A DNA stretch of 64,000 nucleotides from a virus (taxonomy: Duplodnaviria; Caudoviricetes): IMG/VR virus record IMGVR_UViG_3300031857_000007; one strand, written 5' to 3'. The translations under genes and the position numbers were made by a program. The stretch's first letter is position 1, and each line of letters begins with the position of its first letter. Positions 7,714 to 63,812 of this stretch are shown here, one piece after another. Below the pieces are notes generated by a model. It was not told the DNA's origin. It ran no database searches and saw only the letters and a program-made list of their open reading frames with translations.

Positions 7714-7786
7714 AGCCCCCGACAAGACTTGAACTTGCGACAACCGCTTTACAAAAGCGGTGCTCTACCAGCTGAGCTACAAGGGC
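7714..7786 (-). tRNA. tRNA-Thr(UGU)
   Basis: GCCCTTGTAGCTCAGCTGGTAGAGC-ACCGCT-TT-TGT-AA-AGCGG...GTTCAAG...CGGGGGCT cloverleaf, 73 nt. Confidence 0.95.
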
Positions 7787-7788
7787 AA

Positions 7789-8058
7789 TTAATCGACAGG
7801 TAACATTTCAGGATTTTCTAGATCTAGTTCAAACATTAGAGGATGACATAGTTCATCAATTAAATAAAAAGATGATTTATATAAATCATCTGGTTCAAAC
7901 CTTCTTTCTTTATCTGCCAATTCTATGACTTCCAGATCGTATTGATAACTATCAGGAACATCATCAAAAGTAAATGGTATTTGATTTATGAAATACATTA
8001 GAACTATTTGTGCTCCTTTATTATACCAAACGTATCTGGCATCTATTCTGTATTTCAT
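7789..8058 (-). CDS. Hypothetical protein between tRNA genes
   Basis: ORF track, 89 aa, fills the gap between tRNA-Leu and tRNA-Thr. Confidence 0.65.
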   Translation of the reverse strand: MKYRIDARYVWYNKGAQIVLMYFINQIPFTFDDVPDSYQYDLEVIELADKERRFEPDDLYKSSFYLIDELCHPLMFELDLENPEMLPVD

Positions 8059-8107
8059 AGGAGAACCTCCTACTTTTTTATATTTAGAGATTGTTTAAAA
8101 CCTCTAA

Positions 8108-8191
8108 TAGGAACGGGGAGACTTGAACTCCCACGAGCAAATGCCCAACTGATTTTAAGTCAGGTGCGTCTACCGATTCCGCCACGCTCCC
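8108..8191 (-). tRNA. tRNA-Leu(UAA)
   Basis: GGGAGCGTGGCGGAATCGGTAGACGC-ACCTGA-CT-TAA-AA-TCAG, long variable arm, GTTCAAG T-loop, 84 nt. Confidence 0.95.
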
Positions 8192-8199
8192 ATGTATTT

Positions 8200-8274
8200 T
8201 GGTAGGACTGCTGAGACTTGAACTCAGTTCACACCGTTATAAGCAGTGGGCCTTAACCCATAGGCGACAGTCCC
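8200..8274 (-). tRNA. tRNA-Ile(UAU) with encoded CCA
   Basis: GGGACTG...CACTG-CT-TAT-AA-CGGTG...GTTCAAG...CAGTCCT-A-CCA. Confidence 0.9.
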
Positions 8275-29701: not shown

Positions 29702-29729
29702 TAGGGTTCTCCTTAATTGAAGTTAAAGA

Positions 29730-29829
29730 GCGTTCCTTCAGTCGGCGTTTGCGTCGGTTTCCCGATGAACGTTCCGTTCCGCGTCGGCTTACTTCCGTCC
29801 TATAGTACTTTAGTCATAGGATGAACGTT
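29730..29829 (-). ncRNA. Tandem glutamine riboswitch (glnA/Downstream-peptide family)
   Basis: Two units AACGTTCA-[hairpin]-CG(G/C)AA...GCCGAC...GAACG with P1 CGTTC/GAACG; unit 1 has CGGAAGTAAG, unit 2 has a TCGG-GAAA-CCGA tetraloop and ends GAAGGAACGC. Confidence 0.8.
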
Positions 29830-37178: not shown

Positions 37179-37282
37179 GTAGTAAGACCATCAGGGAAAT
37201 GGTGGAGTTACTATTCCCCAGTCACCCTCAGACTGGGTATGAGAGACGTAATTTATACACCCCATAGGTCTCGGTTAATGGG
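37179..37282 (-). ncRNA. PhotoRC-II-like structured psbA 5' leader
   Basis: GAGAC/GTCTC pairing; hairpin CCCAGTC-TGAGGGT-GACTGGG and hairpin ACCAT-TTCCCTG-ATGGT whose loops are complementary (AGGG/CCCT). Confidence 0.7.
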
Positions 37283-37330
37283 TGTTTAACAATGTTAAGA
37301 TTTATTAGAAATCCGTAACATTTGTTTACC

Positions 37331-61997: not shown

Positions 61998-63085
61998 TTA
62001 TTTGTAGATTCGATCTGATCATTAATCCAAGAATACGTCTTACGAATTCCTTCCTCTAAGGTTTGAGAATAATCCCAACCAAGTTTTTCGCGGATAAGAT
62101 CATTATTGGAATTACGACCACGAACACCAAGAGGACCATCAATATGATTCTTCTCTACAGTTTTACCAGAAACTTTAGCAGCAATATCTACAAGTTGATT
62201 GATAGTTACCATTTCCTCAGAACCAATATTCACTGGACCTTGGAAGTCAGAATCCATCATTCGGCGGGTTGCTTCAATACATTCATCAATGTAGAGGAAT
62301 GAACGAGTCTGTTTTCCATCACCCCAAACATCAATTGTACCACCTTCCTTTGGAAGATATGCTACTTTACGACAGATTGCTGCAGGTGCTTTCTCTCTTC
62401 CACCTTCCCAGGTTCCTTCAGGTCCGAAGATATTATGATACCTAGCAACCCGAACAGGGATCCCATAATTACGAGAATAAGCGAGAAACAACCGCTCTGA
62501 GAACAACTTCTCCCAACCATACTCAGAATCTGGGTTAGCTGGGTATGCTGATTCTTCACGGCAGTCAGGATTGTCTGGATCAAGTTGATTATGCTCTGGA
62601 TACATACAGGCAGATCCAGAATAGAAAATTTTGGTTTGATATTCTAAAACAGGTCGAACACATGCAGTTCCATTATCAACACCATCAAATGTTTCATTCA
62701 GTTGGCGCTGTGCCTCAAGAACATTAAGGTTAATTTGTGACGAGTTATGCATGATATCTGCATCATTTTCGCCAGTAAAGACGAATCCTGCACCACCCAT
62801 ATCAGCAGCAAACTGATAGATTTCGTGGAACGGAAGAATGCAGCGATAAGGAACACTGGCGTAAAAATTACCTTGCTCACCTTTGAATTCAAGAACACGG
62901 CGAACAAAACTCATGTCACGCAAGTCACCTTGAATAAATTCATCTGCTTCTGAAATAGAAAACTCAGGATATTTGAGATCTACACCACGAACCCAATATC
63001 CCTCTGCTTTCAAACGCTTTACCATGTGGCTTCCAATGAATCCACCAGCACCAAGTACAAGTGCCGTTTTTTTATAATCGCTCAT
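61994..63085 (-). CDS. GDP-mannose 3',5'-epimerase-like SDR
   Basis: GAGGFIG, FAADMGG.GF, SACMYPE..Q, AYPA.PDSEYGWEK, REKAPAA.CRK, GVRGRNS. Confidence 0.8.
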   Translation of the reverse strand: MSDYKKTALVLGAGGFIGSHMVKRLKAEGYWVRGVDLKYPEFSISEADEFIQGDLRDMSFVRRVLEFKGEQGNFYASVPYRCILPFHEIYQFAADMGGAGFVFTGENDADIMHNSSQINLNVLEAQRQLNETFDGVDNGTACVRPVLEYQTKIFYSGSACMYPEHNQLDPDNPDCREESAYPANPDSEYGWEKLFSERLFLAYSRNYGIPVRVARYHNIFGPEGTWEGGREKAPAAICRKVAYLPKEGGTIDVWGDGKQTRSFLYIDECIEATRRMMDSDFQGPVNIGSEEMVTINQLVDIAAKVSGKTVEKNHIDGPLGVRGRNSNNDLIREKLGWDYSQTLEEGIRKTYSWINDQIESTNK

Positions 63086-63110
63086 AGATTACATTAAACT
63101 CTTTTTATAT

Positions 63111-63139
63111 ATTATACTAAAAAAGGTGGGTTTATGCAA
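63111..63139 (-). promoter_or_regulatory. Sigma70-type promoter for the sugar island, with its -35 inside the terminator
   Basis: TTGCAT-N17-TATAAT. Confidence 0.7.
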
Positions 63140-63146
63140 CCCACCT
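63119..63146 (-). terminator. Intrinsic terminator at the 3' end of the structured RNA
   Basis: AGGTGGGTT-GCATA-AACCCACCT followed by T5. Confidence 0.8.
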
Positions 63147-63555
63147 CTGTGACTCAGGCTCGCCACCAATTCTTTGACTGGAAATTGGAAACCAGGCGGG
63201 AGAGAGTCCCATCCGCACCACTTGCCTTTTGAAGGAATGGCAAGAAACCTAATAGGGTCATATTGACTCCACCACTTAGTTTTAGGAAACTAAGAAAAGT
63301 TGGGTTAACTTTGATATCTCGGTAATACCAAAGAATGCACATAAGAAAAGTACATCCCAAAGTTTAAGTTTAATAGCAAAAGGTACTGTGAGTAATCCTC
63401 CAACAACTTTTATCATTAAACCATATTTAAATTCTCCCCATAGCATAGTTTGATAACCAATTATGAGGAGAATGTTTCCAATCCACCGAAGTAAATCAGA
63501 TTTAGACATAAGGGGTTTTGCTCCCGACCAGTGCTGTTAAAGTCCATCCGTGACT
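63147..63555 (-). ncRNA. manA/wcaG-like multi-domain structured RNA, interrupted by an ORF
   Basis: Repeated pseudoknot-UGGYG-hairpin units (63147-63294) plus a 5' element ACGGATGGAC...CTGGTCGGG..CCCC (63511-63552); family name recalled from memory, not searched. Confidence 0.6.
63282..63509 (-). CDS. Small 2-3-TM membrane protein inside the structured RNA
   Basis: ORF track, 75 aa, hydrophobic; stop codon lies in the loop of the first RNA hairpin. Confidence 0.65.
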   Translation of the reverse strand: MSKSDLLRWIGNILLIIGYQTMLWGEFKYGLMIKVVGGLLTVPFAIKLKLWDVLFLCAFFGITEISKLTQLFLVS

Positions 63556-63557
63556 AT

Positions 63558-63812
63558 TTACTCATCATCGTCCCTCACGTAACAAGGAACAGTATCAGGA
63601 TCCAACCATTTAGTATATTCAAAATCTTCCATAGCCGTCATTAACTGCATTTCATTATCACATAGATACATATCTCGATAACGACCAGTATAAGAGTCTA
63701 CTTTTTGAATACGACAATCGGGTTTACCATTAATTTCTAAAGTACCCACTTGGATGTAACGATATGGAAATCGTTCCATAAGAACAGTTGGTTTCCTAAC
63801 TACTTTCATCAT
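63558..63812 (-). CDS. Conserved hypothetical protein
   Basis: ORF track, 84 aa. Confidence 0.65.
   Translation of the reverse strand: MMKVVRKPTVLMERFPYRYIQVGTLEINGKPDCRIQKVDSYTGRYRDMYLCDNEMQLMTAMEDFEYTKWLDPDTVPCYVRDDDE

What the first reader, a model, noticed from the sequence alone, without database searches (positions are those of the whole stretch)
63275..63555. A membrane-protein ORF inserted inside the structured RNA
Seen: after a late-promoter-like TAAATA (about 63554-63559) comes the RNA 5' element ending GGG-AGCAAAA-CCCC. Two nucleotides later the ATG of a 75-aa hydrophobic ORF follows, with no SD. Its last codons (TTA GTT TCC TAA) form the first RNA hairpin, whose expected upstream pseudoknot partner (an AGG/GAG-type strand) is missing. 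Inference: the ORF sits inside one RNA transcript, so translation terminating in unit 1 could unfold or switch the RNA, as in leader-peptide attenuation. Alternatively the RNA is a dual-function mRNA/ncRNA, or a gene was inserted and partly broke unit 1.
Basis: partly seen in the sequence, partly recalled or inferred. Interest (0 to 1): 0.7.

Follow-up and report, generated by a model that had tools for sequence, protein, structure and literature searches.

The report
Membrane-protein gene nested in wcaG RNA array
A real 75-codon membrane-protein gene sits between two units of a cyanophage RNA that turns out to be a chain of four small folded modules, of which the catalogued "wcaG RNA" is only the last two; the gene looks like cargo lodged in a joint of the chain, not a regulatory leader peptide.

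Summary
All features are on the minus strand. Rfam's wcaG RNA (63252-63152, 97.8 bits) is only the 3' half of a longer array: a 5' module M0 (63555-63512), module M1 (63298-63255), then M2 and M3.

The 75-aa ORF (63509-63282) lies exactly between M0 and M1. Its start is 2 nt after the M0 hairpin, and its stop codon is in the loop of the M1 hairpin.

- **Co-occurrence:** of 121 viral-contig matches to a 14-mer of M0, 84 are followed by wcaG modules.
- **Presence or absence:** about 42 distinct arrays carry the ORF and about 33 lack it. Three ORF-less arrays (L083, L068, L100) align collinearly with the window apart from a clean ~230-nt indel.
- **Real gene:** dN/dS is 0.17, it belongs to phrog_2318, and it is predicted to have three TM helices. 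Distant paralogues lie in ordinary gene contexts.
- **Pseudoknot:** the M1 pseudoknot, present in ORF-less arrays, is lost here.
- **Array end:** the array ends in an intrinsic terminator that holds the promoter for the sugar genes.

The best reading is a cargo gene in a joint of an array of autonomous RNA modules, on one early transcript. A leader-peptide attenuator is unlikely. The function of the array is still unknown.

This scan had already noted the same architecture in at least five other genomes. I found no paper describing it.

The parts
63558..63812 (-). Upstream small gene (84 aa, phrog_481). Its stop codon TAA (63560-63558) is the first half of the 'TAAATA'.
   Evidence: phrog_481, E 5e-44
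63512..63555 (-). It holds hairpin A0 AGUC/GACU with loop ACGGAUG, linker UUAACAGCAC, tail UGGUC, and hairpin B0 GGG-AGCAAAA-CCCC.
   Evidence: The A0 stem occurs as AGUC/GACU, AGAC/GUCU and CGUC/GACG and is always paired. Own model R1 hits 63556-63466 at 45.8 bits.
63282..63509 (-). 75-aa ORF with three predicted TM helices, phrog_2318. The ATG comes 2 nt after B0 and the stop codon TAA is at 63284-63282.
   Evidence: dN/dS 0.17; pLDDT 86.6; 410 or more clusters
63255..63298 (-). Module M1 (type II). It reads UUUUC, hairpin A1 CUUAG-UUUCCUAAAA-CUAAG (63294-63275), tail UGGUGGAG (63274-63267), and hairpin B1 GUCA-AUA-UGAC followed by CC. The pseudoknot 5' strand is replaced by coding sequence.
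   Evidence: weak Rfam wcaG hit 63339-63260; R1 hit 63330-63256
63152..63252 (-). Modules M2 and M3, which together are the Rfam wcaG RNA (RF01761), full length.
   Evidence: 97.8 bits against gathering score 42. Pseudoknot complementarity holds in 35/38 M2 modules and 42/44 M3 modules.
63111..63148 (-). Intrinsic terminator (63148-63122) fused to a sigma-70-type promoter. The -35 TTGCAT sits in the terminator loop (63139-63134), followed by 17 nt and the -10 TATAAT (63116-63111). This is a PeSL-like composite.
   Evidence: (terminator after 55/63 arrays, -10 box after 49); PMC4122927
61994..63085 (-). First gene of the sugar cluster, an NAD-dependent nucleotide-sugar epimerase/dehydratase (363 aa).
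   Evidence: (PF01370, E 1.6e-35)

Best explanation
The locus is one short early transcription unit. It runs: two small genes, RNA module M0, the 75-aa membrane-protein gene, RNA modules M1, M2 and M3, then an intrinsic terminator.

The modules are autonomous small folds. Each has a 5' hairpin (type I) or an H-type pseudoknot (type II), then a single-stranded UGGYS tail, then a small GG...CC hairpin. The joints between modules tolerate inserted genes.

The 75-aa gene is such a cargo gene. It is translated in its own right from the AUG 2 nt after the M0 hairpin, and it ends inside the M1 hairpin. Coding constraints have erased the 5' strand of the M1 pseudoknot, while the M1 stem, tail and second hairpin are kept.

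A ribosome finishing the ORF must melt the M1 stem and would cover its UGGUGGAG tail. This makes M1 transiently unavailable on translated copies. I read that as a side effect of compaction, not as a switch.

Shown by sequence and comparison:
- the module anatomy;
- the split of the array by the gene;
- purifying selection on the gene;
- loss of the pseudoknot;
- the terminator-promoter composite.

Inferred:
- a single transcript;
- early timing;
- ribosome masking of M1;
- that the modules are docking sites for a still unknown partner.
For: - **Array anatomy.** All nine isolate loci examined have a type-I or type-II module upstream of the Rfam hit.
- **Co-occurrence.** 84 of 121 M0 14-mer matches are followed by modules.
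- **Clean indel.** ORF-less arrays L083, L068 and L100 are collinear with the window apart from a ~230-nt indel that equals the ORF. No copy of the ORF lies elsewhere on 32 ORF-less contigs.
- **Split motif.** Model R1, built from ORF-less arrays, hits both flanks of the ORF.
- **Real gene.** dN/dS is 0.17, it matches phrog_2318, the fold is confidently 3-helix, there are 410 or more clusters, and paralogues sit in ordinary contexts.
- **Other cargo.** Different ORFs sit in other joints, namely 63-69-aa ORFs between M1 and M2, and module number and order vary.
- **Constrained overlap.** The stop codon lies 1-9 nt before the UGGUGGA tail in 40 of 41 distinct loci. The A1 stem covaries through synonymous Leu codons.
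- **Pseudoknot.** Complementarity holds in 11/11 canonical ORF-less M1 modules but only 3/18 ORF-bearing ones. In the window's subfamily the pseudoknot-position loop base before the TAA stop varies freely as a Ser wobble.
- **Transcript bounds.** No promoter-like site lies between the ORF and M1. In the 84%-identical relative L103, TTGACT-17-TATAAT precedes the two small genes and a terminator follows M3. A terminator follows 55 of 63 arrays.
Against: - There are no transcript data, so co-transcription and the RNA ends are inferred.
- The promoter of the unit lies outside the window and is seen only in relatives.
- The overlap of the stop codon with M1 is kept in every ORF-bearing locus, in three different registers, and even with a type-I module (the 'SPGMT*' variants). 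That is more constant than mere compaction requires and leaves room for functional coupling.
- A subset of ORF-bearing loci appears to have rebuilt a 3-bp pseudoknot (ACU/AGU) by changing the last amino acid. This suggests M1 still matters in the ORF context.
- The function of the modules is unknown, so 'autonomous docking modules' is a description of behaviour, not a demonstrated mechanism.
Confidence: 0.7

Rival explanations
1. Translation-coupled switch. Ribosomes terminating in the M1 hairpin remodel the downstream RNA, so translation of the ORF controls the array or the genes behind it, as in leader-peptide attenuation.
For: The stop codon lies inside or at the first hairpin of the next module in all ORF-bearing loci, 1-9 nt before the UGGUGGA tail in 40 of 41. 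A terminating ribosome would necessarily unwind A1 and cover the tail, which is an inference from ribosome footprint size.
Against: - The ORF is 75 codons long, conserved and under purifying selection, with paralogues that are ordinary genes.
- It has no run of regulatory codons.
- A1 is not followed by a U-run, and no alternative pairing with the terminator is conserved. The terminator stems differ between loci and lie beyond M2 and M3.
- Arrays work without the ORF in about 33 of 75 distinct loci.
Confidence: 0.12
2. Two separate RNAs. TAAATA is a late promoter that makes an M0-ORF mRNA, and M1-M3 is a distinct RNA made by processing or its own start, so the ORF is beside a structured RNA and not inside one.
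For: TAAATA lies directly before M0 in 19 of 42 ORF-bearing arrays and in none of 33 ORF-less arrays. The modules are autonomous, so processing between them is conceivable.
Against: - TAAATA contains the upstream gene's stop codon.
- It is absent from the other 23 ORF-bearing arrays, where the upstream gene runs into M0.
- The ORF overlaps M1, so no promoter can separate them.
- No sigma-70-like site lies inside the ORF on this strand.
- The correlation may only mark one subclade.
Confidence: 0.1
3. The repeats are DNA-level recombination or regulatory cassettes (like PeSLs) and not a functional RNA. The ORF is simply a gene shuffled between repeats.
For: The region is hyperplastic. ORFs come and go at module joints, and the array ends in a PeSL-like terminator-promoter (PMC4122927, PMC2839356).
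Against: - The stems keep pairing through compensatory changes and use G-U pairs on the sense strand only.
- Pseudoknot strands covary in M2 and M3: 35/38 and 42/44 fully complementary, against shuffle maxima of 28 and 34.
- The Rfam covariance model scores 97.8 bits.
Confidence: 0.05

Closest known systems
wcaG RNA motif (Rfam RF01761; Weinberg et al. 2010, PMC2864571)
   Same: M2 and M3 of this locus are a full-length, high-scoring member (97.8 bits). It is found in a T4-like cyanophage ahead of nucleotide-sugar genes, as described for the motif.
   Different: The catalogued 98-nt motif is only the last two of four modules. A type-I head module and a further type-II module lie upstream, a protein gene sits between them, and a terminator with an embedded promoter separates the array from the 'regulated' genes. 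The Rfam model marks no pseudoknots. None of this appears in the papers I could search.
Leader-peptide transcription attenuation (trp, his, pheA leaders)
   Same: The end of an ORF overlaps an RNA hairpin, so ribosome position can decide whether the hairpin forms.
   Different: Here the ORF encodes a conserved 75-aa membrane protein. It has no regulatory codon run, no competing terminator/antiterminator pair, and the hairpin is not a terminator.
Dual-function RNAs that both encode a small protein and carry a structured regulatory RNA part (SgrS/SgrT, RNAIII/hld, SR1/SR1P; from my own knowledge)
   Same: One transcript combines a small ORF with conserved non-coding RNA structure.
   Different: Those RNAs act by base-pairing with known targets. 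No target or partner is known here, and the RNA part is a tandem module array that also exists without the ORF.
PeSL composite terminator/promoter cassettes of T4-like phages (Arbiol et al. 2010, PMC2839356; Comeau et al. 2014, PMC4122927)
   Same: A stem-loop terminator is fused to an early sigma-70-type promoter, in a hyperplastic region where small ORFs are gained and lost.
   Different: The PeSL-like element closes the array. The ORF's insertion joints are between RNA modules, not between PeSLs.
Small H-type pseudoknot aptamers such as preQ1-I, and the UGGN tRNA-end-binding bulge of T-box leaders (from my own knowledge)
   Same: Type-II modules have the strand order S1-L1-S2-L2-S1'-A-rich L3-S2'. 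Every module presents a single-stranded UGGY between two helices, and UGGY is complementary to an RCCA 3' end.
   Different: No Rfam hit to either family came up even at E up to 10. No specifier element is present. Complementarity of M0 to tRNA-Pro stops at 7 nt and does not covary with the phages' own tRNA-Pro. This is resemblance only.

Membership tests
wcaG RNA (RF01761) | Covariance-model score at or above the curated gathering score (42 bits), over the full model | tested here: met
   97.8 bits, model positions 1-98 of 98, at 63252-63152 on the minus strand
wcaG RNA (RF01761) | Located in a T4-like cyanophage or marine sequence upstream of exopolysaccharide or high-light genes (PMC2864571) | tested here: met
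   A nucleotide-sugar epimerase gene follows. Neighbours and relatives are Kyanoviridae.
wcaG RNA (RF01761) | The 5' element and the unit-1 hairpin are covered by the family model | tested here: not met
   The Rfam model stops at 63252. M1 gets only 20.7 bits (E 0.15) and M0 gets nothing. The extension is supported by comparison and by own model R1, not by the curated family.
Leader-peptide attenuator | Short, poorly conserved leader ORF with regulatory codons | tested here: not met
   75 codons, 24 invariant residues in 20 sequences, dN/dS 0.17
Leader-peptide attenuator | Mutually exclusive terminator/antiterminator hairpins overlapping the ORF end | tested here: not met
   A1 has no U-run. 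The only terminator is at 63148-63122, beyond M2 and M3, and its stem sequence is not conserved between loci.
phrog_2318 (phage protein family of unknown function) | Profile-HMM match over the full length | tested here: met
   E 3.9e-20, residues 4-70 on profile positions 4-70 of 71
DUF6552 (PF20189) | Pfam HMM match above the gathering score | tested here: not met
   No Pfam hit for the ORF or for 20 homologues at E up to 10. The only link is a language-model neighbour cluster.
PeSL composite terminator/promoter | Stem-loop terminator fused to a sigma-70-type early promoter in a hyperplastic region | tested here: met
   An 11-bp stem plus T-run, with TTGCAT in the loop, then 17 nt and TATAAT. 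The same design follows 49 of 63 arrays. Promoter activity was not tested.
T-box-like tRNA 3'-end sensor | A UGGN whose N and flanks match a specific tRNA acceptor end, plus a specifier that reads the anticodon | tested here: inconclusive
   The M0 tail UGGUCGG complements the CCGACCA end of tRNA-Pro over 7 nt. There is no covariation with the tRNA-Pro genes on 63 contigs, and 6 of them mismatch. No specifier was identified, and there is no Rfam T-box hit.

The most novel reading that the evidence does not exclude
The modules are docking sites for RCCA 3' ends of tRNAs, with the UGGY tails used as in T-box leaders or RNase P. M0 would bind tRNA-Pro. Because the M0 tail shares its GGG with the hairpin that abuts the AUG, occupancy of M0 would gate translation of the nested membrane-protein gene, and ribosomes ending in M1 would in turn free or block the next site. 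The array would then be a phage-encoded, translation-linked tRNA-state sensor or tRNA sponge.
Probability: 0.07. Interest if true: 0.9.

Novelty: new variant of a known kind. Interest (0 to 1): 0.55.

Why it matters
wcaG has been an orphan riboswitch candidate since 2010. It has been read as a 98-nt leader of sugar and high-light genes.

Three results change which experiments make sense:
- The motif is the tail of a variable chain of autonomous modules.
- Protein genes can sit in the joints of that chain.
- A terminator with its own promoter separates it from the supposed target genes.

The search should now be for a partner that binds repeated UGGY-presenting modules, not for one ligand of one aptamer.

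The finding also corrects annotation. The nested gene is unannotated in S-SRM01 and in the ACG-2014f genomes, while spurious CDSs are drawn across the RNA. Finally, it gives a natural case of a gene and an RNA fold sharing nucleotides, with visible trade-offs: the pseudoknot is lost, and in some lineages it appears to be rebuilt by changing the last amino acid.

Tried and rejected
- **Function of the 75-aa protein.** Pfam, NCBIfam, Foldseek against PDB, and VIA-align against 48,161 chains gave only generic three-helix bundles such as NuoK or MrpF (Z about 9, within the noise for helical bundles). BFVD gave cyanophage homologues and weak PnuC-like rows (E 0.3-1). I draw no functional conclusion.
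- **SemiSWEET or PnuC half-unit idea.** Not supported by any significant match.
- **Rfam at a permissive threshold.** At E up to 10 over 63080-63620 there was no preQ1, T-box or other family on the modules.
- **tRNA-Pro complementarity of the M0 tail.** It reaches only 7 nt, with no covariation.
- **Whole-genome search.** No genome is held for this window, so the unit's promoter could only be read in relatives.
- **Single-sequence folding of M0.** This was not informative (z +1.4). Its support is comparative only.
- **Riboswitch-style pairing.** I looked for alternative pairing between M3 and the terminator. The terminator stems differ between loci, so I rejected it.
- **First pseudoknot parser.** It failed and was replaced.
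- **Literature.** Nothing on wcaG beyond the 2010 description and genome-annotation mentions, and no cyanophage transcript-end data for this locus.

Full report
**What is there**

All features are on the minus strand. Read 5' to 3', the locus runs as follows:
- a small gene (63812-63558, phrog_481);
- a 75-aa ORF (63509-63282);
- a hairpin followed by GUGGUGGAG and a second small hairpin (63298-63255);
- a full-length Rfam wcaG RNA (63252-63152, 97.8 bits against a gathering score of 42);
- an intrinsic terminator (63148-63122);
- TATAAT (63116-63111);
- a nucleotide-sugar epimerase gene (63085-61994).

The window is a T4-like cyanomyovirus. Its nearest isolate is S-SRM01, at about 71% nucleotide identity.

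- TAAATA is at 63560-63555, and its TAA is the stop codon of the upstream gene.
- The 5' element ends in GGG-AGCAAAA-CCCC, and the ATG follows after two bases.
- The last codons UUA GUU UCC UAA lie in the 5' arm and loop of CUUAG-UUUCCUAAAA-CUAAG.

**The catalogued wcaG RNA is only part of the RNA**

In nine isolate loci, the sequence just upstream of the Rfam hit always holds a further unit. That unit reads (N3)UUUC-stem-UUC(N3)AAAA-stem-GUGGUGGAGUCA..UGACCC.

The Rfam part itself consists of two such units, with tails GUGGUGCGGA and GUGGCG. I call these type-II modules M1, M2 and M3.

Each has the strand order of an H-type pseudoknot. The three bases before UUUC pair with the three bases that start at the C of the loop's UUC.
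- Full complementarity is seen in 35 of 38 distinct M2 modules. Shuffling gave a mean of 21 and a maximum of 28.
- It is seen in 42 of 44 M3 modules. Shuffling gave a mean of 26.7 and a maximum of 34.
- It is seen in all 11 canonical ORF-less M1 modules, with pairs such as AGAG/CUCU, CAG/CUG, AAG/CUU and GCG/CGU.

**The 5' element is the head module of the same array**

In S-SZBM1 and RN05-S, which lack the ORF, the element CACGGAUGGnCUaUAACAGCACUGGUCGG sits directly in front of M1.

I scanned viral contigs for its 14-mer ACAGCACTGGTCGG, which gave 121 matches in the loci held. Of these, 84 are followed by wcaG modules; the rest are truncated or chance matches.

The element (M0, type I) has four parts:
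- a 4-bp hairpin seen as AGUC/GACU, AGAC/GUCU and CGUC/GACG, always paired;
- a UWUAAC linker;
- a UGGUC tail;
- a GGG..CCC hairpin of variable length.

Some arrays carry a second type-I copy ending in CUGGUGGAG. M0 is therefore a module of the same general design: a structured 5' part, a UGGY tail, then a small GG..CC hairpin.

**The ORF sits exactly in the M0|M1 joint**

Among distinct arrays, about 42 carry the ORF and about 33 do not.

Pairwise alignment of the window with the ORF-less arrays L083, L068 and L100 is collinear through the upstream gene, M0, M1-M3 and the terminator. The only large difference is a ~230-nt indel that equals the ORF. For example:
- L100 reads ...GGGAGCAAACCCCUUA|AGUUUC-CUAG...
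- The window reads ...GGGAGCAAAACCCCUUAUG[ORF]CAACUUUUC-UUAG...

None of 32 ORF-less contigs has a copy of the ORF elsewhere on the 1-14 kb held.

A covariance model built only from nine ORF-less M0+M1 sequences hits the window twice. Its 5' half hits at 63556-63466 (45.8 bits, E 3e-11), and its 3' half hits at 63330-63256 (16.2 bits).

**The ORF is a real protein gene**

- It matches phrog_2318 (E 4e-20).
- 41 distinct homologues from the arrays give a median pairwise dN/dS of 0.17. Variation is concentrated at third codon positions.
- 24 residues are invariant in a 20-sequence alignment.
- AlphaFold gives a confident three-helix membrane-type bundle (pLDDT 86.6).
- More than 410 clusters at 90% identity exist in metagenomes, all unnamed.
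- No Pfam, NCBIfam or solved-structure match is specific.
- BFVD finds only cyanophage homologues plus weak PnuC-like rows.
- A language-model neighbour cluster is labelled DUF6552, but the Pfam scans gave no match to any family.

More distant family members (35-45% identity) are ordinary genes without RNA modules. They lie between speD and the clamp-loader gene in SynMITS9220M01 and S-SKS1, in a run of small genes in S-CREM1, and before a GT11 gene in phage B3. In ACG-2014f the homologue is followed by a single M3-like module.

**How gene and RNA share sequence**

In every ORF-bearing locus the ORF ends inside the next module. The stop codon lies 1-9 nt before the UGGUGGA tail in 40 of 41 distinct loci. 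Three registers occur:
- TAA in the A1 loop, as in the window;
- TAG or TAA in the 3' arm;
- in the 'SPGMT*' variants, TAA in the linker of a type-I module.

The 5' arm of A1 is coding sequence (Phe-Leu-Val). Synonymous Leu codons UUA, UUG and CUA are each compensated in the non-coding 3' arm. Across 29 loci the stem is 100% paired, 3 of 5 pairs show double changes, and no shuffle out of 500 reached the observed value.

The pseudoknot 5' strand is replaced by the invariant coding CAACU. In the window's subfamily the loop base before TAA takes all four values as a Ser wobble position.

Only 3 of 18 distinct ORF-bearing M1 modules are complementary. These are the ones whose loop reads AGU opposite the coding ACU, at the price of a Lys or Gln as the last residue. 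This looks like a secondary repair and is a lead, not a result.

L068 and L083 lack the ORF but keep the ORF-type M1 (UUUUC, no pseudoknot), so they look like deletions of the gene.

**Other genes use other joints**

Unrelated 63-69-aa ORFs, some with an (AC)n leader, lie between M1 and M2, or between M0 and M2, in several arrays. Module number and order vary, with architectures such as 0-2-3, 0-1-3, 0-1-2-3, 0-I'-2-3 and 0-2-1-3.

This is the behaviour of independent modules with permissive linkers. It is not the behaviour of one compact fold.

**Transcription context**

A terminator follows M3 in 55 of 63 distinct arrays. A further 4 run straight into a tRNA gene.

In 49 arrays a -10 box, TATAAT in 42 of them, lies within 14 nt of the T-run, and TTGCAT or TTGACA sits 17 nt upstream in the terminator loop. 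In the window this reads TTGCAT (63139-63134), 17 nt, TATAAT (63116-63111).

This is the composite terminator/promoter design described as PeSL in T4-like phages (PMC4122927, PMC2839356). It means the sugar genes have their own promoter downstream of the array, which argues against wcaG being simply their 5' leader.

The window ends 190 nt into the next gene upstream. In the collinear, 84%-identical contig L103, a TTGACT-17-TATAAT promoter just after a tRNA-Met gene precedes the two small genes.

No promoter-like site lies between M0 and M3 on this strand in the window. One early transcript of about 0.9 kb is the simplest reading, but it is inferred.

*'Inside one RNA' and 'a gene was inserted and partly broke unit 1'.* Both are supported.

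*Leader-peptide-like attenuation.* This is unlikely, for three reasons:
- the ORF is a long, conserved membrane protein;
- there is no competing terminator structure at its end;
- the array exists with and without it.

Ribosomes ending the ORF must still open A1 and would cover the M1 tail. A modest coupling cannot be excluded, and the strict conservation of the overlap keeps it alive; I give it 12%.

*TAAATA as a late promoter.* It contains the upstream stop codon, and 23 of 42 ORF-bearing arrays lack it. It does, however, occur only in ORF-bearing arrays (19 against 0), which may reflect one subclade.

**What the array does remains unknown**

Weinberg et al. proposed a riboswitch for exopolysaccharide and high-light genes (PMC2864571). 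I found nothing newer.

Earlier notes of this scan suggested that the UGGY tails pair with tRNA 3' ends. I tested this only partly:
- The M0 tail UGGUCGG does complement CCGACCA, the end of tRNA-Pro. tRNA-Pro is the only elongator tRNA with G72 (from my own knowledge).
- A tRNA-Pro gene lies on 63 of the array contigs.
- The match stops at 7 nt, does not covary with those genes, and 6 of them mismatch.

I keep it as the most novel reading, at about 7%.

**Novelty**

This scan had already reported the same 'wcaG array with a nested gene' in at least five other genomes, and a first-stage note covers this same stretch. This window is therefore another instance and not a first sighting.

Against the published record it is a new variant of a known kind: a known orphan RNA motif, shown to be the tail of a modular array that can host protein genes.

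Noticed in passing
L001 (S-SRM01) 1288-1512 and 1542-1748; L004 (ACG-2014f) 1501-1719; L008 (S-CAM22) 1459-1626: Annotation errors in public records. The 75-aa gene homologue is unannotated in S-SRM01 and in dozens of ACG-2014f genomes. Meanwhile 'hypothetical protein' CDSs are drawn across the wcaG RNA itself (S-SRM01 gp295, S-CAM22 gp044). The window's own mechanical 68-aa ORF at 63360-63154 is the same artefact.
   Followed up: partly
window 63111-63148 (-), and after M3 in 49 of 63 related arrays: The terminator and promoter are fused. The -35 box (TTGCAT or TTGACA) sits in the terminator loop and TATAAT follows the T-run. The sugar-gene cluster therefore has its own promoter downstream of the wcaG RNA.
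   Followed up: yes
L026, L033, L041, L054, L101, L017 (M1 of ORF-bearing arrays): In a subset of ORF-bearing arrays the M1 loop reads AGU opposite the coding ACU. This restores a 3-bp pseudoknot, and the last amino acid changes from Ser to Lys or Gln. It is a possible case of a protein end evolving to serve an RNA fold.
   Followed up: partly
L012, L058, L108, L084, L061, L069, L112: Other small ORFs (63-69 aa) occupy other joints of the array (M1|M2 or M0|M2). One class has an (AC)n-rich leader and another is a coiled-coil-like protein.
   Followed up: partly
window 63555-63560 and related loci: TAAATA directly before M0 occurs in 19 of 42 ORF-bearing arrays and in none of 33 ORF-less arrays. 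It could mark one subclade, or a late promoter acquired together with the gene.
   Followed up: partly
63 of the array-bearing contigs (for example L103 3893-3967): A tRNA-Pro gene lies near the array on most contigs, sometimes immediately after it (S-IOM18, S-RIM8, S-RIM50). Four arrays run into a tRNA gene in place of a terminator.
   Followed up: partly
window 37203-37297 (-), 29727-29829 (-), 7714-8274 (-): Other RNA genes in the window: PhotoRC-II RNA (86 bits), a glutamine riboswitch aptamer (45 bits) and three tRNA genes.
   Followed up: no
L001 (S-SRM01) about 1270-1290; L053: In one subfamily the ORF starts at an AUG inside the M0 second hairpin (GGUGAUGAAA...), about five codons further upstream (about 15 nt). 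The gene then overlaps the RNA modules at both ends.
   Followed up: no
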